DNA of 64,000 nt, taken from the NCBI RefSeq assembly GCF_041886205.1, contig NZ_CP169029.1; one strand, given 5' to 3'. This DNA comes from Escherichia coli (lineage in GTDB: Bacteria > Pseudomonadota > Gammaproteobacteria > Enterobacterales > Enterobacteriaceae). The position numbers were made by a program, and so were the translations under genes. Numbering within the stretch: position 1 is the first letter of the stretch; the number at the start of each line of letters is the position of its first letter. Positions 1 to 46,282 of this stretch are shown here, piece by piece. Below the pieces are notes generated by a model, which was not told the origin of the DNA, made no database searches, and saw nothing but the letters and a program-made list of their open reading frames with translations.

Positions 1-113
1 CATGAGCAGAAATGGGCAATGAAACACGGGCGACTATTTTGCGGCAAAAGAGGCCAGCCGCAAAAGCAGTGCGTGCTTTAAGAGATAAAAAAAACGTGAC
101 ACTGTAACCTATT

Positions 114-150
114 ATTGCCGGATTGCGCGTAATCGTCACCATCCGGCAAT
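114..150. repeat. 10-bp perfect inverted repeat (ATTGCCGGAT / ATCCGGCAAT) with 17-nt spacer, downstream of dmsD; possible terminator or REP-like element
   Basis: Arms at 114-123 and 141-150 are exact reverse complements; a T8 run follows on the minus strand about 20 nt further on. Confidence 0.3.
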
Positions 151-162
151 ATTACGGTGATC

Positions 163-777
163 CTATCGAAACAGCGGTTTAACCGCGACAGGAATTAACA
201 GTTGTGATTGCCATTGCGCCAGCGTTAAGCGAGCCAGTTCACCCAGTGCACGGTAGAAAGGGTGTTCTGCTTTTTCGATAAAAACCTCAAGAAAACGTGT
301 TGACCACGGAAAAAGGTGCCATGCCAGCAATTCTTCGCATTCTGTCTGGCGACCATTCTCCGCCAACCACGCAGCCATCAACAGCAGTGAACCAAAATGA
401 TCTTCCGGTTCGTTTTGCTTCATTTCAAACTGAATGCCTTTCTCGCGCATCCACTGACGAAGTGCCAATGTTGAATCGCCAAACAGCACAGATTCGCGAT
501 CCAGCCAGACCGACCCCCACGGCGGAGACGGCAGTGCCCACGGGCCGACAAACAAACGCTGCCAGGCCTGGGCGTGAGTCTCTTCACACTGTGTCTGAAA
601 AGCCGTCACCAGCGGCGCTAATGACGCTTCTGGTAGAGGCCACTGAGTTTCCCAGCCGTCACTGGTGAGTACCGCAACCAGAGGTGCGGCTTCCGCACTC
701 TCTGGAGCGTAATAAAACAGCGCGCCCAACACGCGCGCCGCGACAGAAAAATTATCTTGCTGTGAAAAATGGGTCAT
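163..777 (-). CDS. dmsD: Tat proofreading chaperone DmsD
   Basis: Track ORF 163..786; protein from MTHFSQQDNF... is 204 aa, matching DmsD length and position after ynfH; start placed at the fourth codon. Confidence 0.85.
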   Translation of the reverse strand: MTHFSQQDNFSVAARVLGALFYYAPESAEAAPLVAVLTSDGWETQWPLPEASLAPLVTAFQTQCEETHAQAWQRLFVGPWALPSPPWGSVWLDRESVLFGDSTLALRQWMREKGIQFEMKQNEPEDHFGSLLLMAAWLAENGRQTECEELLAWHLFPWSTRFLEVFIEKAEHPFYRALGELARLTLAQWQSQLLIPVAVKPLFR

Positions 778-819
778 TCCTAACATCCTGAAATGTGCGG
801 GTTGCCCCGCACCAATTTG

Positions 820-1674
820 TTAACCTGCAATAGCCATTCCTACTGTCATGTGCAGGCCATAAAAGAGCACACGCCCGATCATCTCACCGCCAAGTATGAG
901 GATTAGCCCCAGAATAAGTCCGGCAACGTGAGGTTCACGGCGACGAATGAGCGGGCAAAGCCAGCATCCAAGACCTGCGCATAACAATACCACACGCCAG
1001 ACCTGTAAGGAGGCGTAATCTGGTACCAGTGCGCTGGCTTGTTGCACGGATGAGTGAATAGACGCCAGAGACAAACCTTGCAGCACAATCACCCCGGCAC
1101 AAGCGATCAGCGCCAGAACGCTAATGATGGCAAATGGTGTGGTATTAAATGTAACGCGAGCTGCCCGCAGAATTGCGGCAGCAAGTATTGGACCGCTCAA
1201 CAATACCGTCAGGAAGAAAGCCAGCGTAGTGTAACCGTTATGCCAGGTTGGCACGGTGTCGATTTGATACACGCAGGTCATCATCCAGACGAAAATGACG
1301 CCGAGCGCCATGCTGAAAAGTAACCAGAGTTTCCCCAACGCTTGCGGCATTTTACCGATGACTGCCACCAGCCACCATAATCCGCCAACGGCAAAAAATA
1401 TGGAACCGGCAGCAATCTCGTTACTCAGACCAGAAGCTCCGATTCGATTCAGCGAGTTAAACGCCCGCAGTGGCGATCCCAGGTGCATGACAGAGGCAAT
1501 AAACCCGACGCCCATCAACAGCCAGAGGAAAAACATGCCACGGACAATACGCTGACGGTCTGCGTCATTTTTGGCGGCGAACCAGCCAATTCCGCTAACA
1601 ATCAGCGCGCCTACTACGCATTGACCCAATACGGTAAAGATAACCAGTGGCCACTCATGCCATCCATTTCCCAT
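820..1674 (-). CDS. ynfH: DMSO-reductase-type membrane anchor subunit (DmsC family)
   Basis: Multi-TM hydrophobic protein; track ORF runs to 1914 but ATG at 1674 (MGNGWHEWPLV..., 284 aa) sits 2 nt after the ynfG stop; upstream extension would overlap ynfG. Confidence 0.8.
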   Translation of the reverse strand: MGNGWHEWPLVIFTVLGQCVVGALIVSGIGWFAAKNDADRQRIVRGMFFLWLLMGVGFIASVMHLGSPLRAFNSLNRIGASGLSNEIAAGSIFFAVGGLWWLVAVIGKMPQALGKLWLLFSMALGVIFVWMMTCVYQIDTVPTWHNGYTTLAFFLTVLLSGPILAAAILRAARVTFNTTPFAIISVLALIACAGVIVLQGLSLASIHSSVQQASALVPDYASLQVWRVVLLCAGLGCWLCPLIRRREPHVAGLILGLILILGGEMIGRVLFYGLHMTVGMAIAG

Positions 1675-1675
1675 T

Positions 1676-2293
1676 TTACACTTCCTCCGGATTAGCCAGA
1701 TAACCAGTGGTATCGCCGGTCGGGCGGCTGTTGGCGTTAGGTTTGATAACGATATTGGGTTTTGTGAAATGCGCGCGCGGCAGTGGCGCGACGGCAGCAA
1801 GAGTGCCGTGCTTCTGGCGCAGCTCTTCAATTGGACCGAACTCAAGTGCACGCAGCGGGCAGGATTCGACACATATGGGTTGTTTCCCCTCGGCGACGCG
1901 CGAATAACAACCATCGCACTTCGTCATGTGCCCTTTTTCAGCATTGTACTGTGGCGCGCCGTACGGACAAGCCATGTGGCAGTAGCGGCAGCCGATACAA
2001 ACATCTTCATCAACCACCACAAAGCCATCTTCACGCTTATGCATTGCGCCGCTGGGGCAGACTTTTGTACATGCGGGGTCATCGCAATGGTTACAGGAGA
2101 TGGAGAGATAATAAGCGAACACGTTCTGGTGCCAGACGCCATTATCTTCCTGCCAGTCGCCGCCAGCGTATTCATAAATACGGCGGAAACTGACTTCCGG
2201 GCCAAGATCTTTAAAATCTTTGCACGCCAGTTCGCAGGTTTTACAGCCAGTACAGCGGCTGGAATCGATAAAAAATCCATATTGTGTGGTCAT
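1676..2293 (-). CDS. ynfG: 4Fe-4S ferredoxin-type electron-transfer subunit (DmsB family)
   Basis: 205 aa with four Cys-rich Fe-S cluster motifs (CTGCKTCELAC, CNHCDDPAC, CIGCRYCHMAC, CDGC...C). Confidence 0.9.
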   Translation of the reverse strand: MTTQYGFFIDSSRCTGCKTCELACKDFKDLGPEVSFRRIYEYAGGDWQEDNGVWHQNVFAYYLSISCNHCDDPACTKVCPSGAMHKREDGFVVVDEDVCIGCRYCHMACPYGAPQYNAEKGHMTKCDGCYSRVAEGKQPICVESCPLRALEFGPIEELRQKHGTLAAVAPLPRAHFTKPNIVIKPNANSRPTGDTTGYLANPEEV

Positions 2294-2303
2294 GGGCTAC
2301 TCC

Positions 2304-4727
2304 TTAAACCTTTTCGATCTGGACAAGATTGCTGTGCGACGGGTTTCCCTTTGCCAGCGGTGAAGGGCGGTGAGAGGTCAGAATATTGATACTGCCGCCG
2401 TGATCGACCCGGTCACCAAACATATCCGCTTTAAGCCACGCACCTTGCCCGATGGCGGTAACGCCAGGCAGAATACGCGGAGTCACTTTTGCGGCAATCA
2501 GCATTTCTCCATTATTGTTAAATACCCGCACGGTATCGCCATGACGGATACCGCGTGCCTGAGCATCAATGGGGTTGATCCACACCTCTTGTGGGCAGGC
2601 CTGCTGTAACACATCAATATTGCCGTAGCTGGAGTGGGTACGCGCTTTGTAATGGAAGCCCGTTAACTGCAGTGGATAGGTTTTCCGCAGGGGATCGTCC
2701 CAGCCATCAAAACCTGGGGTATACGCAGGAAGGGGATGAATAATTTCATCTTTTTTCAATTCCCAGGTATCTGCAATCTTCGCCAGTCGTTCAGAATAAA
2801 TTTCGATTTTCCCCGAAGGTGTTTTCAACGGGTTTGCCTGTGGATCTTCACGGAATGCGCGGAAAGCGACGTAGTGTTCTTCCGGGCATTTTTTCTTAAA
2901 GATCCCGGTCGTTTTCATCTCCTCGTAGTCGGGCATCTCAGGGTTACGTTCCTTCGTTTTCGCATGGAGATATTTGATCCATTCATGCTGACTGCGACCT
3001 TCAGTAAAGGTTTGATAAACGTCTGGTCCTAAGCGTTTGGCGACTTCACTCAGCATCCAGTAGATGGGTTTGCGTTCAAATTTTGCTGAGGTTGCGGGTT
3101 GGGCGAGGATCACATAGCCCATATTCCCTGCAGATTCATGAGAGATAAGGTCTTCTTGCTCTGTTGGCATCAGGTCGGGCAACAGGATATCGCAATACTT
3201 AGCCGAGGCCGTCATGAAGTGGTCAATGCCAACAATCATCTCGCACTTGCTGTCATCCTGAAGCACCTCATGGGTGTGATTGATGTCGCCATGTTGATTG
3301 ATCAATGTGTTACTGGCGTAGCACCATAAAAACTTGATGGGGACATCCAGTTTTTCTTTTCCACGAACACCATCACGGGTCGCGGTCATTTCCGTACCAT
3401 GGTCGATGGCATCTGTCCATGTAAAGACGGAAATCTGCGTTTTAACAGGATTCTCGAGCATCGGGAACCATTCTACCCCCAGATCCCAGCTACCTTCGCG
3501 TACGCCTGAGTTGCCGCCGTTTATGCCGACGTTGCCGGTGAGAACGGAAAGCATGGCAATAGCGCGGGATGTTTGCTCGCCGTTGGAATGTCGTTGTGGC
3601 CCCCAACCCTGACAAATATAAGCAGGTTTTGCTGAACCGATCTCTCGTGCCAACTGGATAATTTTTTCTGCCGGGATGCTGGTGATTTTTGCTGCCCATT
3701 CCGGCGTTTTAGCTATGCCGTCAGGCCCTTCGCCCAGAATATAGGCTTTATAATGCGCGTTACGTGGTGCGTTGGCGGGCAGCGTTTTTTCATCGTAACC
3801 AACACAATATTTGTCGAGAAATGGCTGATCGACCATGTTTTCAGTAATCAGTACCCAGGCAATCGCACAGGCCAGTGCGCCATCGGTGCCAGGGCGAATG
3901 GGCAGCCATTCATCTTCACGCCCGGCAGCAGTGTCGTTATAACGTGGATCGATGACGATCATGCGTGCGTTTGAACGTTCGCGGGCTTGCTCGACGTAGT
4001 AAGTGACACCACCGCCGCTCATCCGCGTTTCTGCCGGGTTATTTCCGAACATAACGACCAGTTTCGTATTGGCGATATCATCCGGGCTGTTGCCATCATT
4101 GGCACCGAACATATAACTCATTGCGGCACTGATCTGTGCGGTACTGTAGCTGCCATAGCGACTGAGAAAACCACCGCAAGAGTTCATCAGACGGTACGGG
4201 ACGTTTGAGTTGGTGATGTTTCCGCCATCTACACCTGTTCCGTACAGGACATGTACAGCCTCATTGCCGTAATCTTTTAGGATCCGCCGAAGATTATCAC
4301 TGATGGTATCCAGGGCTTCGTCCCAACTTATCCGTTCAAATTTACCTTCACCGCGCTTGCCGACGCGCTTCATGGGATATTTCAACCTATCAGGATGATT
4401 CATCCGTCGGCGGATAGAGCGCCCGCGTAAACACGCGCGAACCTGATGATTACCGTAGACGTCGTCACCTGTCGTATCAGACTCCACCCAGTACACGGTG
4501 TCATCTTTCACATGCAAACGTAACAGACAGCGGCTCCCGCAGTTAACGGTGCAGGAACTCCAGACCGCTTTCTCTTCTACCGGAACCTCTGCCGCCCGAA
4601 CCATTTGGGAAAATGGCAGAGTGAAAGCACTGCTTGCCAGCGCGAGACTGCCAAGTGCGGAGGTTTTCATCAGACTTCTACGGCTGATTTCAGCCTTCAT
4701 GAGCGCCTCTGTGGTATGGATTTTCAT
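2304..4727 (-). CDS. ynfF: Tat-exported molybdopterin oxidoreductase catalytic subunit (DmsA paralogue)
   Basis: 807 aa; twin-arginine signal SRRSLMK; N-terminal Cys cluster CTVNCGSRC; large MopB-type protein. Confidence 0.9.
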   Translation of the reverse strand: MKIHTTEALMKAEISRRSLMKTSALGSLALASSAFTLPFSQMVRAAEVPVEEKAVWSSCTVNCGSRCLLRLHVKDDTVYWVESDTTGDDVYGNHQVRACLRGRSIRRRMNHPDRLKYPMKRVGKRGEGKFERISWDEALDTISDNLRRILKDYGNEAVHVLYGTGVDGGNITNSNVPYRLMNSCGGFLSRYGSYSTAQISAAMSYMFGANDGNSPDDIANTKLVVMFGNNPAETRMSGGGVTYYVEQARERSNARMIVIDPRYNDTAAGREDEWLPIRPGTDGALACAIAWVLITENMVDQPFLDKYCVGYDEKTLPANAPRNAHYKAYILGEGPDGIAKTPEWAAKITSIPAEKIIQLAREIGSAKPAYICQGWGPQRHSNGEQTSRAIAMLSVLTGNVGINGGNSGVREGSWDLGVEWFPMLENPVKTQISVFTWTDAIDHGTEMTATRDGVRGKEKLDVPIKFLWCYASNTLINQHGDINHTHEVLQDDSKCEMIVGIDHFMTASAKYCDILLPDLMPTEQEDLISHESAGNMGYVILAQPATSAKFERKPIYWMLSEVAKRLGPDVYQTFTEGRSQHEWIKYLHAKTKERNPEMPDYEEMKTTGIFKKKCPEEHYVAFRAFREDPQANPLKTPSGKIEIYSERLAKIADTWELKKDEIIHPLPAYTPGFDGWDDPLRKTYPLQLTGFHYKARTHSSYGNIDVLQQACPQEVWINPIDAQARGIRHGDTVRVFNNNGEMLIAAKVTPRILPGVTAIGQGAWLKADMFGDRVDHGGSINILTSHRPSPLAKGNPSHSNLVQIEKV

Positions 4728-4787
4728 CATTACTCACTTATTGCTTTTCAAACAAAATGTCATGCCAGAATTTATGGTTGTAGTGGG

Positions 4788-7214
4788 TTATATTTTTTCG
4801 ATCTCGACCAGATTAGTGTGCTGCGGGTTTCCCTTCGCCAGTGGTGAAGGGCGCAGAGTGGTTAGCGTATTCACACAGCCGCCATGGTCGATTTTATCGC
4901 CAGACATATTGGCCTCGTGCCAGGCTCCCTGGCCCATAGCGCTAACTCCAGGGAGAATACGTGGTGTCACTTTGGCTGGTAGCCGAACTTCGCCACGATG
5001 GTTAAACACCCGCACCATATCGCCGTTGGCAATCCCACGTTTCTGCGCATCTATAGGGTTGATCCACACCTCCTGACGGCAGGCTGCTTTCAGGACATCA
5101 ATGTTGCCGTAGGTCGAGTGAGTACGGGATTTGTAATGGAAACCAAACAGTTGCAGTGGGAAGGTTCTACGTTCAGGGGAGTCCCAGCCTTCAAAGGTAG
5201 AGGCATAAACTGGCAGTGGGCTTATCACTTCATCTTTTTCCAGTTCCCAGGTACGGGCAATTTCCGCCAGCTTGCTGGAATAAATTTCAATCTTACCGGA
5301 AGGTGTTTTAAGTGGATTTGCCTCGGGGTCGTCACGAAATGCTTTGTAGGCGACAAAATGACCATTGGGATCTTTACGCTTATAGATACCCATTTTTTTC
5401 AGTTCGTCGTAAGACGGTAACGCCGGATCTTTGGCAAGCATTTTGGCGTACAGATGTTGTAACCATTGTTCCTGCGTGCGACCTTCAGTGAACTTTTGAT
5501 AGACGTCAGGTCCAAGACGTTTCGCGACTTCACTCAGGATCCAGTAAATCGGTTTGCGTTCGAATTTTTCGCTGGTGACAGGCTGGAGGAAAATGAGATA
5601 TCCCATGTTACCGGCGTAGTCGTTAGGAATAATATCTTCCTGCTCAACGGTCATCAGGTCTGGCAGCAGAATGTCGGCATATTTTGCCGATGAGGTCATA
5701 AAGTTTTCGATGACCACAATCATTTCGCATTTCGATTCGTCCTGCAGAATTTCATGCGTTTTGTTGATGTCAGAATGCTGATTAACGAGGGTATTTCCCG
5801 CGTAGTTCCAGATGAACTTAATGGGCACATCCAGTTTATCTTTGCCCCGGACGCCGTCGCGGATTGCCGTCATTTTGGGGCCATGATCGATAGCATCTGT
5901 CCAGCTGAAGCAGGAAATTGACGTTTTGACCGGATTATCCAGCACCGGCAGGCGCTCTATGGTAATGGTATAGGTCGATTCACGCGCGCCACTATTTCCG
6001 CCGCTGATGCCGACATTGCCCGTCAAAATAGGTAACATAGCAATAGCGCGTGCAGTCAGTTCGCCGTTTGCCTGGCGTTGTGGCCCCCAGCCCTGGCAGA
6101 TATAAGCGGGTTTTGCTGTGCCAATTTCACGCGCCAGTTTGATGATACGGTCCTCCGGGATACCGGTAATTTGCGAAGCCCACTGCGGCGTTTTCGCTGT
6201 TTTATCGTCACCTTCACCAAGAATATAGGCTTTATAGTGACCATTTTTGGGTGCATCTGCGGGTAAGGTTTTTTCGTCATAGCCGACGCAGTATTTATCG
6301 AGAAAAGGTTGATCAACGAGATTTTCGTTAATCAATACCCAGGCAATACCCGCAACCAGCGCGGCATCGGTGCCCGGGCGAATAGGGAGCCATTCGTCTT
6401 CACGACCGGCAGCCGTATCGGTATATCGCGGATCGATAACAATCATTTTGGCGTTCGATTTCTCGCGCGCTTTTTCAAGAAGATAAGTGATGCCACCACC
6501 GCTCATGCGGGTTTCTGCCGGGTTGTTACCAAACATCACGACCAGCTTGCTGTTTTCAATATCCGTGGTGCTGTTGCCATCATTACTGCCGTAGGTGTAG
6601 GGCATGGCACAGGAAATTTGCGCAGTGCTGTAGGAGCCATACTGGTTGAGTGAACCGCCGTAGCAGTTCATCAGGCGTTTGACCGCCGAGGCTGATGGCG
6701 AAGAGCGGGTCATATTGCCGCCAACGATCCCCGAAGAGTACTGAATATATACAGCCTCATTGCCATATTGTTCGACGGTTTTCTTCAGGCTACTGGCGAT
6801 AGTATCCAGGGCTTCATCCCAGCTAATCCGTTCGAATTTGCCTTCGCCGCGTTTGCCCACGCGTTTCATTGGGTAATTCAAGCGATCGGGATGATTAATA
6901 CGCCGGCGGATGGAGCGACCGCGCAAACAGGCGCGTACCTGATGGTTGCCGTACTCATCGCTGCCGGTATTGTCAGTTTCCACCCAGGTCACTTCATTAT
7001 CTTTAACATGTAGACGAAGTGCACAGCGGCTACCACAGTTGACGGAACAGGCACCCCAGACCACTTTTTCGCGGGCCTGTTGTACCGATGCTGCTGCATT
7101 GCGCAGGGTAAACGGCAAAGAAAAACCGCCTGCAGCCAGCGCCAGAGAACCTATCGCGGTAGATTTAACGAGTGTTCTGCGGCTGATGCCCACCATTCGT
7201 TCATTTTTGGACAT
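4788..7214 (-). CDS. ynfE: Tat-exported molybdopterin oxidoreductase catalytic subunit (DmsA paralogue)
   Basis: 808 aa; twin-arginine signal SRRTLVK; CSVNCGSRC motif; colinear paralogue of ynfF directly upstream in the same operon. Confidence 0.9.
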   Translation of the reverse strand: MSKNERMVGISRRTLVKSTAIGSLALAAGGFSLPFTLRNAAASVQQAREKVVWGACSVNCGSRCALRLHVKDNEVTWVETDNTGSDEYGNHQVRACLRGRSIRRRINHPDRLNYPMKRVGKRGEGKFERISWDEALDTIASSLKKTVEQYGNEAVYIQYSSGIVGGNMTRSSPSASAVKRLMNCYGGSLNQYGSYSTAQISCAMPYTYGSNDGNSTTDIENSKLVVMFGNNPAETRMSGGGITYLLEKAREKSNAKMIVIDPRYTDTAAGREDEWLPIRPGTDAALVAGIAWVLINENLVDQPFLDKYCVGYDEKTLPADAPKNGHYKAYILGEGDDKTAKTPQWASQITGIPEDRIIKLAREIGTAKPAYICQGWGPQRQANGELTARAIAMLPILTGNVGISGGNSGARESTYTITIERLPVLDNPVKTSISCFSWTDAIDHGPKMTAIRDGVRGKDKLDVPIKFIWNYAGNTLVNQHSDINKTHEILQDESKCEMIVVIENFMTSSAKYADILLPDLMTVEQEDIIPNDYAGNMGYLIFLQPVTSEKFERKPIYWILSEVAKRLGPDVYQKFTEGRTQEQWLQHLYAKMLAKDPALPSYDELKKMGIYKRKDPNGHFVAYKAFRDDPEANPLKTPSGKIEIYSSKLAEIARTWELEKDEVISPLPVYASTFEGWDSPERRTFPLQLFGFHYKSRTHSTYGNIDVLKAACRQEVWINPIDAQKRGIANGDMVRVFNHRGEVRLPAKVTPRILPGVSAMGQGAWHEANMSGDKIDHGGCVNTLTTLRPSPLAKGNPQHTNLVEIEKI

Positions 7215-7313
7215 AACTCACTCCCTGTTCTTTATCGTTATATAAAAGTTTATATATTGAATATTTAGCGCGCTAACAATAGAGGGAGTCTACCCATTTT
7301 GGGTTAAGAATTA

Positions 7314-7327
7314 TTAATCCATATCAA
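7314..7327 (-). promoter_or_regulatory. candidate FNR site (TTGAT-N4-ATTAA on operon strand) about 105 bp upstream of ynfE
   Basis: Near-consensus FNR half-sites at the right distance for an anaerobic operon; only one half-site is perfect. Confidence 0.3.
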
Positions 7328-7412
7328 TAGAAGGGTATGAGTAATAAGGTGGGATTATGTTGTATGTTCAAATCGCCGGATTTGTCATATCCGGCGTTCA
7401 GTCGATAATGTG

Positions 7413-7718
7413 TTACTGCGGTTCGGCAGGCGCGCCATCCTGGCTAGACTGCGCGGGAGCAGAGACGTTACCGCTGGTGGTGCGGGTATAGAGAATTTTA
7501 TGCGTATCATTAGCGCAATGGCCGACGACCTGGGAATCAGGCTGATCAACCTGGTCATTGGGTACAATACTTAACGTGAAGCTGCTTTCGGGTACGCCAT
7601 TATTGATAATGCGCTGTGATATATCGCTCTGTATGCGCTCACAGGATCCCGGCGCGGCGAGTACCGCGGGTGAGGCGAGGGCGAGCAGAAGCGCGGCACA
7701 GCAGGTTGAGAGTTTCAT
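7413..7718 (-). CDS. ynfD: small secreted protein YnfD
   Basis: Track ORF 115 aa; start placed at MKLSTCCAALLLALASPAVLAAP (signal peptide), giving 101 aa. Confidence 0.7.
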   Translation of the reverse strand: MKLSTCCAALLLALASPAVLAAPGSCERIQSDISQRIINNGVPESSFTLSIVPNDQVDQPDSQVVGHCANDTHKILYTRTTSGNVSAPAQSSQDGAPAEPQ

Positions 7719-7825
7719 CATAAGCTCCTTACGCGAAGATAACTTCTTTAAGCATAGCATTTAACGTGTAAAGTACTGTATTTGCTACTATGATTGAGAA
7801 TCATCTCTACTCTCTGGTGACTGTT

Positions 7826-8536
7826 GTGAAATACAAATTACTACCATGCTTACTCGCGATATTCCTCACAGGATGTGACCGCACAGAGGTAACACTTTCA
7901 TTTACCCCTGAGATGGCCAGTTTCTCTAATGAATTCGATTTTGATCCGCTGCGTGGTCCGGTAAAAGATTTCACTCAGACATTAATGGATGAGCAAGGTG
8001 AAGTGACGAAACGTGTTTCTGGGACTTTGTCGGAAGAAGGCTGTTTTGATTCACTCGAATTACTGGATCTGGAAAATAATACCGTGGTCGCTCTGGTACT
8101 GGACGCCAATTATTACCGTGATGCCGAGACGCTGGAGAAGAGAGTACGTTTACAGGGAAAATGCCAGCTAGCAGAATTACCTTCTGCCGGGGTGAGTTGG
8201 GAAACCGATGATAATGGCTTCGTGATTAAAGCCAGCAGCAAACAAATGCAGATGGAATATCGCTATGATGATCAGGGTTATCCGCTGGGTAAAACCACGA
8301 AAAGTAACGACAAAACATTATCTGTCAGCGCCACGCCATCAACGGATCCGATCAAAAAATTAGATTACACAGCGGTTACTTTACTGAATAATCAACGGGT
8401 TGGTAATGTAAAACAGAGCTGTGAATATGACAGTCACGCTAATCCGGTGGACTGTCAGCTAATCATTGTTGATGAAGGAGTAAAACCCGCCGTCGAACGG
8501 GTTTACACCATCAAAAATACGATCGATTATTATTAA
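7826..8536 (+). CDS. ynfC: lipoprotein YnfC
   Basis: Lipobox LTGC near N-terminus; GTG at 7826 gives 236 aa; the ATG at 7790 is an alternative start. Confidence 0.7.
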   Translation: MKYKLLPCLLAIFLTGCDRTEVTLSFTPEMASFSNEFDFDPLRGPVKDFTQTLMDEQGEVTKRVSGTLSEEGCFDSLELLDLENNTVVALVLDANYYRDAETLEKRVRLQGKCQLAELPSAGVSWETDDNGFVIKASSKQMQMEYRYDDQGYPLGKTTKSNDKTLSVSATPSTDPIKKLDYTAVTLLNNQRVGNVKQSCEYDSHANPVDCQLIIVDEGVKPAVERVYTIKNTIDYY

Positions 8537-15989: not shown

Positions 15990-16316
15990 ATGACTAAAAA
16001 TACTCGTTTTTCCCCCGAAGTCCGTCAACGGGCAGTCCGTATGGTTCTGGAAAGTCAGAGCGAATATGACTCACAATGGGCGACAATTTGTTCCATTGCT
16101 CCAAAGATTGGCTGTACGCCGGAGACTCTGCGTGTCTGGGTTCGCCAGCATGAGCGGGATACCGGGGGCGGTGATGGAGGGCTCACCACCGCTGAACGTC
16201 AGCGTCTGAAAGAGCTGGAACGTGAAAATCGTGAACTGCGCCGCAGTAACGATATCCTTCGCCAGGCTTCCGCTTATTTTGCGAAGGCGGAGTTCGACCG
16301 CCTCTGGAAAAAATGA
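15990..16316 (+). CDS. IS3-family transposase OrfA (HTH)
   Basis: 108 aa [21 protein letters not shown]...; leucine-zipper-like C-terminus. Confidence 0.85.
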
Positions 16317-17203
16317 TGCCACTGCTGGATAAGCTGCGTGAGCAGTACGGGGTCGGACCGCTATGCAGCGAACTGCATATTGCCCCGTCAACGTATTACC
16401 ACTGTCAGCAACAGCGACATCATCCGGATAAACGCAGTGCCCGTGCGCAGCGCGATGACTGGCTGAAGAAAGAGATACAGCGCGTATACGATGAAAATCA
16501 CAAGGTATACGGTGTGCGTAAAGTCTGGCGTCAGTTGTTACGGGAAGGTATCAGAGTGGCCAGATGCACTGTGGCACGTCTCATGGCGGTTATGGGACTT
16601 GCCGGTGTTCTCCGGGGTAAAAAGGTCCGTACGACCATCAGCCGGAAAGCCGTTGCCGCAGGCGACCGCGTAAACCGTCAGTTCGTGGCAGAACGACCTG
16701 ACCAGCTGTGGGTGGCTGATTTTACTTACGTCAGCACATGGCGGGGCTTCGTCTATGTGGCGTTCATCATTGATGTGTTTGCCGGATACATCGTGGGGTG
16801 GCGGGTCTCATCGTCCATGGAAACGACATTCGTGCTGGATGCACTGGAGCAGGCGTTATGGGCCCGTCGACCGTCCGGCACGGTCCATCACAGTGATAAA
16901 GGTTCTCAGTATGTATCGCTGGCCTACACACAGCGGCTTAAGGAAGCCGGATTACTGGCATCAACAGGAAGTACAGGCGACTCGTATGACAACGCGATGG
17001 CGGAGAGCATCAATGGTCTTTACAAAGCGGAGGTAATACACCGTAAGAGCTGGAAAAACCGTGCAGAAGTGGAACTGGCCACACTCACGTGGGTGGACTG
17101 GTATAACAATCGACGATTGCTGGAAAGGCTGGGCCATACTCCTCCGGCAGAAGCAGAAAAAGCTTATTATGCTTCCATCGGAAACGATGATCTGGCAGCC
17201 TGA
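16313..17203 (+). CDS. IS3-family transposase OrfB (DDE integrase core)
   Basis: 296 aa with rve-type DDE domain; overlaps orfA in -1 frame. Confidence 0.85.
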
Positions 17204-28320: not shown

Positions 28321-28683
28321 GGTAATATTAAATCGGAACATTTACATCGCGGAATGTAAAATTTAAATAAAAAGGACTCTTCCATGAGCCAAAATTCCTG
28401 AAATCTTAAGGGTAAGATAAAAGGTCTTAATCAGAATGACACGTTATTATTAATAAATAAAGCTATTCTTTCATTGCTGTGTTTTTCTTTACAAAAGTAA
28501 TCCTTGCTATGGGTGGTTAATCATGCGTTAATGGTGTTCTGGTTTGTTACAAATTTATCTGAAGCAGTCATTGTTATAATTTTATTATTTGTACCTCTTG
28601 AGATTTCCTTGTTGGTTTTTCTCTCTGATATTTTTTTTCGGACCATTCTGCCCAAGGGCTAATTTCTTCAAAAGGTAATAATT

Positions 28684-28896
28684 ATGTCTAACAAAATGAC
28701 TGGTTTAGTGAAATGGTTTAACCCTGAAAAAGGTTTTGGTTTCATCACGCCGAAAGATGGCAGCAAAGATGTGTTTGTCCATTTCTCAGCAATTCAGAGC
28801 AACGATTTCAAAACATTAACTGAGAATCAGGAAGTTGAATTTGGTATTGAGAACGGACCTAAAGGTCCTGCCGCTGTTCATGTAGTGGCGCTTTGA
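28684..28896 (+). CDS. cspI: cold-shock protein (CspA family)
   Basis: 70 aa [23 protein letters not shown]...; long upstream leader typical of csp genes. Confidence 0.9.
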
Positions 28897-29167
28897 GGTA
28901 GACAATATTACAAACCATATTCACTTTAGATGCCCGTGTTGTCATGGTTCCCAGTATAGAACATCATCTTTTGATGTTTCTGACATGAATCCTTTCGGGG
29001 CAAAATGTATCTTTTGTAAATCAATGATGATTACATTTGATAATATTTCACAATACTTAAATGCCAGCCGTCTGTCGTTGGATTTAAAAAAGTGAAAATG
29101 AAGGCTCCTTCGGGAGTTTTTTTGCTTGGTATCTATTCGATGGATACTCACATACTACGGTAACATC

Positions 29168-34043: not shown

Positions 34044-34618
34044 TGGCATTCAGAATGAGTGAACAACCACAGACCATAAAAATTTATAATCTGCTGGCCG
34101 GAACTAATGAATTTATTGGTGAAGGTGACGCATATATTCCGCCTCATACAGGTCTGCCAGCAAACAGTACCGATATTGCACCGCCAGATATTCCGGCAGG
34201 CTTCGTGGCTGTTTTCAACAGTGATGAGGCATCGTGGCATCTCGTTGAAGATCATCGGGGAAAAACCGTCTATGACGTGGCTTCCGGCGACGCGTTATTT
34301 ATTTCTGAACTCGGTCCGTTACCGGAAAATGTTACCTGGTTATCGCCGGAAGGGGAGTTTCAGAAGTGGAACGGCACAGCCTGGGTGAAGGATACGGAAG
34401 CAGAAAAACTGTTCCGGATCCGGGAGGCGGAAGAAACAAAAAACAACCTGATGCAGGTAGCCAGTGAGCATATTGCGCCGCTTCAGGATGCTGCAGATCT
34501 GGAAATTGCAACGGAGGAAGAAATCTCGTTGCTGGAAGCATGGAAAAAGTATCGGGTATTGCTGAACCGTGTTGATACGTCAACTGCACAGGATATTGAA
34601 TGGCCAGCACTGCCGTAG
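34043..34618 (+). CDS. tail fibre assembly protein Tfa
   Basis: 191 aa; start overlaps the stf stop; typical Tfa N-terminus ([21 protein letters not shown]). Confidence 0.8.
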
Positions 34619-45978: not shown

Positions 45979-46007
45979 ACATTCATTGAGAAAACTGATG
46001 CTACTGT

Positions 46008-46111
46008 GTCAACGATCCGTTATCAGTGCAGGAAAATGCCTGTTAGCGTAAAAGCAAAACACAAATCTATCCATGCAAGCATTCACCGCCGGTTTACTGG
46101 CGGTTTTTTTT
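46008..46111 (+). ncRNA. mgrR: MgrR-like small RNA; 5' end approximate
   Basis: About 100-nt unit between the PhoP-like box and a strong terminator (stem GCCGG/CCGGC then T8 at 46085-46111); K-12 context recalled from memory. Confidence 0.5.
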
Positions 46112-46186
46112 CGCCGTCATAAAAATCAGGCCCCTTGTACACAACTGTAACAAGGGGCCGGTTAGGTGAGGGATTATCTCCGTTCA

Positions 46187-46282
46187 TTAGTCATCCCATT
46201 TGTGGCTGAAATACGCGGCCAGAAAACCAGAAAATAAAATTATTCCCAGTACGGCCATAAAAACATTCATATTACCCAGCAT
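46187..46282 (-). CDS. mgtS: small membrane protein MgtS (YneM), 31 aa
   Basis: Below the track's 60-aa cutoff; translation MLGNMNVFMAVLGIILFSGFLAAYFSHKWDD; followed on the minus strand by a hairpin terminator. Confidence 0.7.
   Translation of the reverse strand: MLGNMNVFMAVLGIILFSGFLAAYFSHKWDD

What the first reader, a model, noticed from the sequence alone, without database searches (positions are those of the whole stretch)
2304..7214. Tandem paralogous catalytic subunits ynfE and ynfF
Two colinear 807-808-aa Tat-dependent molybdoenzymes with distinct signal peptides (SRRTLVK, SRRSLMK) and high but imperfect identity are kept in one operon with a single Fe-S and anchor subunit. This is a known arrangement; the divergence argues against an assembly duplication.
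Basis: partly seen in the sequence, partly recalled or inferred. Interest (0 to 1): 0.15.

Follow-up and report, generated by a model that had tools for sequence, protein, structure and literature searches.

The report
Known E. coli ynfE/ynfF paralog pair
The region holds the well-known tandem pair ynfE and ynfF of the Escherichia coli selenate/tellurate reductase operon: two old, diverged copies of a DmsA-like molybdoenzyme gene that share one iron-sulfur subunit, one membrane anchor and one chaperone. It is real and ordinary, not an assembly artefact.

Summary
Confirmed and already known. Window 2304-7214 (minus strand) carries two intact colinear genes: ynfE (4788-7214, 808 aa) and ynfF (2304-4727, 807 aa; 808 from an ATG one codon upstream). 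They are followed by ynfG, ynfH and dmsD. The 8 kb is 100% identical to E. coli strain 6EVA and is annotated this way in RefSeq.

The copies are 71% identical in protein and 70% in DNA. Third codon positions are 47% identical, dS is about 1.5-2.1 and dN/dS about 0.1. The longest shared exact run is 17 nt. This is an ancient duplication under purifying selection, with no gene-conversion tract and no assembly duplication.

Both keep the twin-arginine motif (SRRTLVK, SRRSLMK), the N-terminal Cys cluster and the Mo-ligand serine. Each passes only its own NCBIfam model. The literature describes them as paralogous selenate/tellurate reductase catalytic subunits that depend on DmsD and Tat.

Side observations, outside the window:
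- ynfF is the same double-deletion pseudogene in 546 of 5426 complete E. coli genomes.
- A 6.6-kb integrase element interrupts ynfE in 148 genomes.
- Rare genomes carry one in-register YnfE(N)-YnfF(C) hybrid gene in place of the pair.
- The ynfE-ynfF spacer carries a published RyhB pairing site.

Interest is low.

The parts
4788..7214 (-). ynfE: 808-aa Tat-exported Mo-bisPGD/[4Fe-4S] catalytic subunit. Tat motif SRRTLVK at residues 11-17; Cys group C56-x3-C60-x3-C64...C96; predicted Mo-ligand Ser196.
   Evidence: ORF, translation, RefSeq annotation, Pfam PF04879+PF00384+PF01568, NCBIfam NF041885 1796.6 bits against a cut-off of 1675, motifs
4728..4787 (-). 60-nt ynfE-ynfF spacer holding the ynfF ribosome-binding site. 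It is complementary to RyhB nt 40-56, so ynfF translation can be controlled separately from ynfE.
   Evidence: Sequence. Duplex -20.8 kcal/mol, with 0.4% of shuffled targets as good. Ribo-seq plus a lacZ fusion of ynfF -60..+24 show repression by RyhB (PMC4666370)
2304..4727 (-). ynfF: 807-aa paralog (808 aa if the upstream ATG at 4730 is used). Tat motif SRRSLMK at residues 15-21; Cys group C59-x3-C63-x3-C67...C99; predicted Mo-ligand Ser195.
   Evidence: ORF, translation, RefSeq annotation, Pfam, NCBIfam NF041884 1774.8 bits against a cut-off of 1650, motifs
1676..2293 (-). ynfG: single DmsB-type four-cluster Fe-S electron-transfer subunit, 205 aa.
   Evidence: TIGR02951 DMSO_dmsB 264.8 bits against a cut-off of 214.1; Fer4_11; annotation
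820..1674 (-). ynfH: single DmsC-type membrane anchor / quinol-oxidising subunit, 284 aa.
   Evidence: PF04976 DmsC, E = 4e-128; annotation
163..777 (-). dmsD (ynfI): Tat proofreading chaperone that binds the DmsA, YnfE and YnfF signal peptides, 204 aa.
   Evidence: NF008632 346.6 bits against a cut-off of 162; annotation; literature
7314..7327 (-). FNR-box-like site TTGATATGGATTAA (1 mismatch to TTGAT-N4-ATCAA), centred about 106 nt upstream of the ynfE ATG. It is a candidate site for the anaerobic activation reported for this operon.
   Evidence: Pattern search and sequence. The match is not statistically significant by itself (60 matches in the window against 45 expected). Assigning it to FNR rests on my own knowledge of the ynfE promoter literature.

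Best explanation
This is the E. coli ynfEFGH-dmsD operon. ynfE and ynfF are ancient tandem paralogs of dmsA.

Inferred from family membership and literature: each encodes a precursor with a twin-arginine signal peptide. DmsD holds the precursor in the cytoplasm while an N-terminal [4Fe-4S] cluster (FS0) and Mo-bis-pyranopterin guanine dinucleotide, ligated by a serine, are inserted. The precursor is then exported by Tat together with YnfG and docked on YnfH.

The most likely arrangement is two alternative heterotrimers, YnfE-G-H and YnfF-G-H. They would draw electrons from menaquinol through the same YnfH and YnfG and reduce selenate or tellurate (and possibly S-/N-oxides) at the periplasmic face.

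Shown here: the pair is not redundant at the sequence level. Divergence has been fixed in the signal-peptide n-region and in the loop that aligns with the Rhodobacter DorA active-site residues Tyr114/Trp116. ynfF also has its own translation-initiation region, which is targeted by the iron-sparing sRNA RyhB.
For: Identity of the locus: 100% DNA match to an annotated RefSeq chromosome, and a match in 5420 of 5426 complete E. coli genomes.

Domain architecture and reciprocal family scores.

Conserved motifs. The Tat motif, the Cys group and the Ser in YS[ST]AQ are kept in YnfE, YnfF and DmsA. That Ser aligns to DorA Ser147 in the PDB alignment. It also aligns to DmsA Ser205, which is Ser176 in the old numbering. 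The 29-residue offset also reproduces the remembered residues T148, A178, Q179, R217, C38 and R77.

Old duplication under constraint: dN 0.21, dS 1.5-2.1, dN/dS about 0.10-0.15, with no long identical tracts. In a neighbour-joining tree the YnfE, YnfF and DmsA clades are separate, and E. coli YnfF is closer to Salmonella, Providencia, Actinobacillus and Aeromonas homologs (77-85%) than to E. coli YnfE (71%).

Clade-specific differences: 25 positions are fixed differently in the two clades, including YnfE S161/I163 against YnfF T164/V166. These are the positions aligned with DorA Y114/W116.

Literature:
- YnfE is the main selenate reductase subunit in Salmonella and YnfF contributes little; DmsD binds all three signal peptides (PMC5203670).
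- An E. coli ynfEF deletion abolishes selenate reduction (PMC12724226).
- ynfEF are cited as the selenate/tellurate reductase genes.
- RyhB represses ynfF and dmsA translation.
Against: No biochemistry can be done here. The literature itself states that no direct enzyme assay exists for the Salmonella enzyme. The stoichiometry, meaning alternative trimers rather than a complex holding both catalytic subunits, has not been shown. No solved structure of any DmsA/YnfE/YnfF-type subunit exists; the closest PDB chains are DorA/TorA-type at E about 1e-76. The 'active-site loop' assignment is therefore by sequence alignment only. ynfF is a pseudogene in about 10% of complete E. coli genomes, so it is dispensable in at least one successful lineage.
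Confidence: 0.9

Rival explanations
1. Assembly or sequencing artefact: one gene was duplicated in silico.
For: None beyond the tandem arrangement and the equal length of the two ORFs.
Against: Nucleotide identity is only 69.6% and the longest exact shared run is 17 nt. The same two-gene arrangement covers at least 80% of the query in 5126 of 5426 independently finished genomes. Each copy matches a different curated family model.
Confidence: 0.001
2. ynfF is a functionally redundant spare copy drifting towards loss, not a maintained isoenzyme.
For: YnfF contributes little to selenate reduction in Salmonella. An identical double-deletion ynfF pseudogene is present in 546 of 5426 complete genomes. 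ynfF is at least 80% covered in 4739 genomes, against 5111 for ynfE. ynfE and ynfF are listed among the most frequently pseudogenised metabolic genes of E. coli (PMC13322260).
Against: dN/dS is about 0.1 over a saturated dS. All catalytic motifs are intact in the window copy. The YnfF clade is conserved at 77-85% identity in Salmonella, Providencia, Actinobacillus and Aeromonas, which is a wider spread than the YnfE clade showed among the retrieved hits. The 546 pseudogenes share one junction, so they probably represent a single ancestral event in one heavily sampled lineage. ynfE is also disrupted in at least 148 genomes.
Confidence: 0.2
3. Sub- or neofunctionalisation: YnfE and YnfF have different physiological substrates or are used under different conditions. 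Selenate/tellurate reduction would then be a shared side activity.
For: There are 25 clade-specific fixed differences, including both positions aligned to the DorA substrate-funnel residues Y114/W116, and a 4-residue indel in the same loop (YnfE 171-176). Post-transcriptional control differs: RyhB Ribo-seq lists ynfF and dmsA but not ynfE, and the predicted duplex is -20.8 kcal/mol for ynfF against -17.9 for ynfE. Basal and HOCl-induced expression also differ in uropathogenic E. coli.
Against: No substrate that discriminates between the two has been reported in the papers read here. The structural mapping is by alignment only.
Confidence: 0.45

Closest known systems
E. coli K-12 ynfEFGH-dmsD (ynfEFGHI) operon
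   Same: Same genes, order, strand and spacing. The ynfEF stretch is 99.5% identical to K-12 derivatives. RefSeq annotation is identical in kind.
   Different: Only allelic differences of about 0.5% in DNA.
E. coli DmsABC dimethyl sulfoxide reductase
   Same: Same three-subunit architecture, Tat leader, Cys group, Mo-ligand Ser and DmsD dependence. DmsA is 68% identical to YnfE and 67% to YnfF.
   Different: It has a single catalytic subunit gene, sits at a separate locus without dmsD, and forms a separate clade in the tree. Its active-site-loop residues differ (T169/T171 against S161/I163 and T164/V166).
Salmonella enterica ynfEFGH-dmsD selenate reductase
   Same: Same tandem pair with the same 71% YnfE/YnfF identity. 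The retrieved YnfF ortholog is 84-85% identical to the window's YnfF.
   Different: It is the orthologous operon in another genus. It is where the genetic evidence for YnfE as the main selenate reductase was obtained.
Other bacterial selenate reductases (Enterobacter cloacae SrnA; Thauera selenatis SerABC)
   Same: They are Mo-bisPGD enzymes of the DMSO reductase superfamily that reduce selenate. SrnA complements an E. coli ynfEF deletion.
   Different: They belong to different clades and have different subunit compositions (tree legend). They do not show the tandem-paralog arrangement.

Membership tests
DmsA/YnfE/YnfF family (TIGR02166), with specific YnfE (NF041885) and YnfF (NF041884) models | Score above the curated cut-off of the specific model, and only of that model | tested here: met
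   YnfE scores 1796.6 against 1675 on its own model and 1476.3 against 1650 on the YnfF model. YnfF scores 1774.8 against 1650 on its own model and 1482.3 against 1675 on the YnfE model. Both fall below the DmsA cut-off of 1600.
DmsA/YnfE/YnfF family | N-terminal twin-arginine (Tat) signal peptide | tested here: met
   SRRTLVK at YnfE residue 11 and SRRSLMK at YnfF residue 15, each followed by a hydrophobic stretch and an A-x-A-like site. The cleavage site is inferred by alignment to DmsA only.
DmsA/YnfE/YnfF family | N-terminal Cys group for the FS0 [4Fe-4S] cluster (Molybdop_Fe4S4 domain) | tested here: met
   C-x3-C-x3-C plus the Cys in RACLRGRS is present in both. PF04879 scores above cut-off in both.
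DmsA/YnfE/YnfF family | Molybdopterin oxidoreductase domain, C-terminal MGD-binding domain, and a serine Mo ligand | tested here: met
   PF00384 and PF01568 are found in both. YnfE Ser196 and YnfF Ser195 align with DorA Ser147 and with DmsA Ser205, which is Ser176 in the old numbering.
YnfEFGH-DmsD selenate/tellurate reductase system | Operon partners: a DmsB-type Fe-S subunit, a DmsC-type anchor and the DmsD chaperone downstream on the same strand | tested here: met
   ynfG matches TIGR02951, ynfH matches PF04976 and dmsD matches NF008632. Gene order is as in RefSeq.
YnfEFGH-DmsD selenate/tellurate reductase system | Selenate/tellurate reductase activity, Mo-bisPGD and Fe-S occupancy, and Tat- and DmsD-dependent export | not testable with these tools
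   Taken from the literature on E. coli and Salmonella orthologs.

The most novel reading that the evidence does not exclude
The tandem pair is still an active recombination substrate in natural E. coli despite only 70% DNA identity. Rare genomes carry a single intact 808-aa gene made of an N-terminal YnfE part and a C-terminal YnfF part, joined in register at five or more different breakpoints (about residues 345, 370-385, 455-465 and 515-520). In the two hybrids whose contigs were read, this gene sits directly between ynfD and ynfG. If these hybrids are functional, they form a natural domain-swap series that could locate the determinants of YnfE versus YnfF specificity. Together with the lineage-wide ynfF pseudogene and the element inserted in ynfE, they would show that E. 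coli needs only one catalytic subunit of either type.
Probability: 0.4. Interest if true: 0.25.

Novelty: already known. Interest (0 to 1): 0.08.

Why it matters
The finding as given has little consequence. It re-identifies a textbook E. coli operon and correctly rules out an assembly artefact. What remains open is why two catalytic subunits share one electron-transfer module. The clade-specific differences in the putative substrate-funnel loop, the separate RyhB control of ynfF, and the natural pseudogene and hybrid alleles noted here give concrete handles for testing whether YnfF has its own substrate. This is incremental enzymology, not a new kind of system.

Tried and rejected
(1) Assembly duplication or recent gene conversion. 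Rejected: 69.6% nt identity, 47% at third positions, no window of 50 codons above 78% nt identity, and a longest exact run of 17 nt.

(2) Hidden genes or RNAs on the opposite strand. The four longest antisense ORFs (98-192 aa) have no Pfam match. Rfam at gathering thresholds finds nothing in 1-8000.

(3) An internal terminator between ynfE and ynfF. None is predicted in the 60-nt spacer. The terminator-like hits inside the coding regions are weak, at 17 found against 8.7 expected.

(4) RNA duplex prediction with full-length RyhB and 84-nt targets gave unrealistically long duplexes. I repeated it with the single-stranded core of RyhB, nt 31-68.

(5) Mapping the divergent residues in 3D was not possible. 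No DmsA-type structure is solved, and the tools do not expose model coordinates, so I did not spend a structure prediction.

(6) Guymer et al. 2009 and Fujita et al. 2021 are not held in the library. Their content is cited only through papers that quote them.

(7) Locus L003 never appeared in the Python sandbox, so the JJ1887 pseudogene was analysed with DNA alignment instead.

(8) The FNR-box pattern is not enriched enough in the window to count as evidence on its own.

Full report
**Observation**

The window has two long minus-strand ORFs at exactly the reported coordinates: 4788..7214 and 2304..4730, each 808 codons plus a stop. Their translations begin MSKNERMVGISRRTLVK... and MMKIHTTEALMKAEISRRSLMK.... 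RefSeq starts the second gene at its second ATG, giving 2304..4727 and 807 aa.

BLASTP gives 567/799 identities (71%), 85% positives and five gapped positions. On a codon alignment the DNA is 69.6% identical: 78%, 83% and 47% at codon positions 1, 2 and 3. The longest in-register exact run is 17 nt, and no 50-codon window exceeds 78% nucleotide identity. The repeat finder independently reports 70-77% direct repeats spaced 2484/2496 nt apart.

**What it is**

Window 1-8000 is 100% identical to the chromosome of E. coli strain 6EVA, and 5420 of 5426 complete E. coli genomes hold a match. The annotation under the match is dmsD, ynfH, ynfG, ynfF, ynfE, then ynfD, all on the minus strand of the window. 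The ynfEF stretch is 99.5% identical to K-12 derivatives.

Both large proteins have the Molybdop_Fe4S4, Molybdopterin and Molydop_binding domains. In NCBIfam each exceeds only the cut-off of its own model:
- YnfE scores 1796.6 against a cut-off of 1675 on its own model, and 1476.3 against 1650 on the YnfF model.
- YnfF scores 1774.8 against 1650 on its own model, and 1482.3 against 1675 on the YnfE model.
- Both fall below the DmsA cut-off of 1600.

The downstream genes are a DmsB-type Fe-S protein (TIGR02951), a DmsC-type anchor (PF04976) and DmsD (NF008632). So there is indeed a single Fe-S subunit, a single anchor and a single chaperone for two catalytic subunits.

I aligned YnfE, YnfF and K-12 DmsA (fetched; alignment).
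- All three keep the Tat motif.
- All three keep the Cys group C-x3-C-x3-C plus the Cys of RACLRGRS (YnfE C56/C60/C64/C96; YnfF C59/C63/C67/C99).
- All three keep the motif YS[ST]AQ.

The Ser of that motif is YnfE Ser196 and YnfF Ser195. It aligns with Ser147 of Rhodobacter sphaeroides DMSO reductase in the PDB search alignment. It also aligns with DmsA Ser205. Subtracting the 29 residues of the older DmsA numbering, which started at Met30, gives Ser176. The same offset reproduces T148, A178, Q179, R217, C38 and R77, which I remember from the DmsA mutagenesis literature. This is an internal check that the register is right.

No DmsA/YnfE/YnfF-type subunit has a solved structure. The nearest chains are DorA/TorA-type at E about 1e-76.

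**Age and selection**

dN is 0.21 and dS is 1.5-2.1, which is saturated. dN/dS is about 0.10-0.15.

A search with YnfF returned orthologs named YnfF in Salmonella (84%), [Enterobacter] lignolyticus (79%) and Aeromonas (76%). It also returned closely related, differently named proteins from Providencia (78%) and Actinobacillus rossii (77%). Proteins named YnfE from Escherichia albertii, Kluyvera, Lelliottia, Enterobacter, Kosakonia and Citrobacter were 71-73% identical.

A neighbour-joining tree separates a YnfF clade, a YnfE clade and a DmsA clade. The duplication therefore predates the Escherichia/Salmonella split. This is consistent with the same 71% YnfE/YnfF identity reported for Salmonella.

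Divergence is uneven. The lowest identities are in the signal peptide (50% aa), residues 127-205 (56-60%), 381-455 (62-64%) and 581-630 (46%).

I compared 47 YnfE-clade and 13 YnfF-clade sequences. Twenty-five positions are fixed differently in the two clades. They include YnfE S161 and I163 against YnfF T164 and V166, with T169 and T171 in DmsA. In the HMMER alignment these columns face DorA Tyr114 and Trp116, which I recall as substrate-funnel residues. A four-residue indel lies in the same loop. This fits different substrate preferences but does not prove them.

**How it most likely works**

What follows is inferred from family membership and from the papers read. Each precursor is bound at its signal peptide by DmsD and receives FS0 and Mo-bisPGD. 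It is then exported by Tat and joins YnfG on YnfH to form a menaquinol-linked periplasmic reductase.

The papers support this as follows:
- In Salmonella, YnfE is the main selenate reductase subunit and YnfF contributes little. [quoted passage not shown]
- In E. coli, deleting ynfEF abolishes selenate reduction (PMC12724226).
- ynfEF are also cited as the tellurate reductase genes.
- DmsD is required for all three enzymes.

The 60-nt ynfE-ynfF spacer (window 4728-4787) carries the ynfF ribosome-binding site. That site is complementary to RyhB nt 40-56, with a duplex of -20.8 kcal/mol; 0.4% of shuffled targets do as well. The ynfE initiation region pairs less well, at -17.9 kcal/mol. Ribo-seq and a lacZ fusion of ynfF -60..+24 showed RyhB repression of ynfF and dmsA (PMC4666370). 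The two paralogs in one transcript can therefore be translated differentially.

An FNR-box-like site with one mismatch lies at 7314-7327, about 106 nt upstream of the ynfE ATG. By itself it is not statistically significant.

**Rivals**

An assembly artefact is excluded.

'Redundant copy on its way out' has some support. The same ynfF allele with two internal deletions occurs in 546 of 5426 complete genomes. The deletions are 274 bp (about window 2385-2658) and 580 bp (window 3434-4013). The count comes from a junction-spanning query. ynfF is at least 80% covered in 4739 genomes, against 5111 for ynfE. A 2026 pangenome study lists ynfE and ynfF among the most often pseudogenised metabolic genes.

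Against this reading:
- There is strong purifying selection across genera.
- The motifs are intact here.
- The single shared junction suggests one event in one heavily sampled lineage.
- ynfE is also disrupted in 148 genomes by a 6.6-kb element carrying an integrase and a KilA-N gene.

Subfunctionalisation is plausible but untested.

**Further observations outside the window**

The protein database contains E. coli 808-aa proteins that are 82-88% identical to both paralogs. Site-by-site assignment shows that each is a clean single-breakpoint chimera with YnfE at the N-terminus and YnfF at the C-terminus. At least five different breakpoints occur.

I read the contigs for two of them. In each, the hybrid is the only catalytic gene between ynfD and ynfG. 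This is the product expected from unequal crossover between the tandem copies. In one case the crossover interval contains only 5 nt identical between the window's two alleles. At 70% identity a k-mer assembly artefact is very unlikely.

Out-of-register in-frame fusions of 946-1220 aa also exist. Some are in many contigs: P0003 in 33 and P0012 in 95.

**Verdict**

The finding is correct, and its interpretation is correct and already textbook knowledge. Nothing unusual is present in the window's copy. Interest is low. The population-level decay and hybrid alleles are a minor addition and are partly anticipated by published pangenome work.

Noticed in passing
Not in the window. Corresponds to window ~2385-2658 and 3434-4013; example L003:3001-4570 (E. 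coli JJ1887): ynfF is a pseudogene with two internal deletions (274 bp and 580 bp, frameshifting) in JJ1887. The 580-bp deletion junction is present in 546 of 5426 complete E. coli genomes, while ynfE stays intact in the JJ1887 example. It is probably one lineage-wide event; JJ1887 is an ST131 strain to my knowledge.
   Followed up: partly
Not in the window. Insertion point corresponds to window ~5818; example L007:1265-7865 (NZ_AP027759.1): A ~6.6-kb element encoding a tyrosine integrase, a KilA-N protein and hypothetical proteins is inserted inside ynfE and splits it into two fragments. The same junction is found in 148 of 5426 complete genomes.
   Followed up: partly
L008:5001-7427, L009:5001-7427, L010:3990-6416; proteins P0022, P0024, P0025, P0038-P0042, P0048: These are single in-register 808-aa YnfE(N)-YnfF(C) hybrid genes that replace the tandem pair, with at least 5 different breakpoints. 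They look like products of unequal crossover. Out-of-register in-frame fusions of 946-1220 aa also exist (P0001-P0018).
   Followed up: partly
window 4728-4787: The ynfF translation-initiation region in the ynfE-ynfF spacer is complementary to RyhB nt 40-56 (-20.8 kcal/mol). This agrees with the published Ribo-seq identification of ynfF as a RyhB target.
   Followed up: yes
window ~11300-36000: A prophage-like, IS-containing stretch starts after rspA. Features under the best matches include exonuclease, phage replisome organizer, ydfU, tyrosine integrase and IS transposases. No complete genome covers more than 85% of window 8001-33000. Rfam hits here are an ALIL pseudoknot (IS3-type frameshift site, 16271-16387), a cspA-type thermoregulator 5' UTR (28538-28923) and IS009 (34386-34584).
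   Followed up: no
window 45980-46193: Rfam finds a full-length STnc560 Hfq-binding sRNA match (281.9 bits) in the core-genome part of the window that carries dcp and the other genes listed.
   Followed up: no
Relative genomes 6EVA and NZ_AP027759.1 (L006:48404-48607 and L007:19256-19459); position in the window not mapped: ydfZ, annotated as a 'putative selenium delivery protein', lies in the same chromosomal neighbourhood as the selenate reductase operon in related genomes. It is about 8 kb from ynfE in 6EVA, which lacks the prophage. A functional link was not examined.
   Followed up: no
proteins P0033 versus the window's YnfE and YnfF: The retrieved Salmonella YnfF representative is 85% identical to E. 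coli YnfF but 77% identical to E. coli YnfE. Other YnfF-clade members are 69-71% identical to YnfE. This hints at partial YnfE/YnfF exchange in that sequence or lineage.
   Followed up: no
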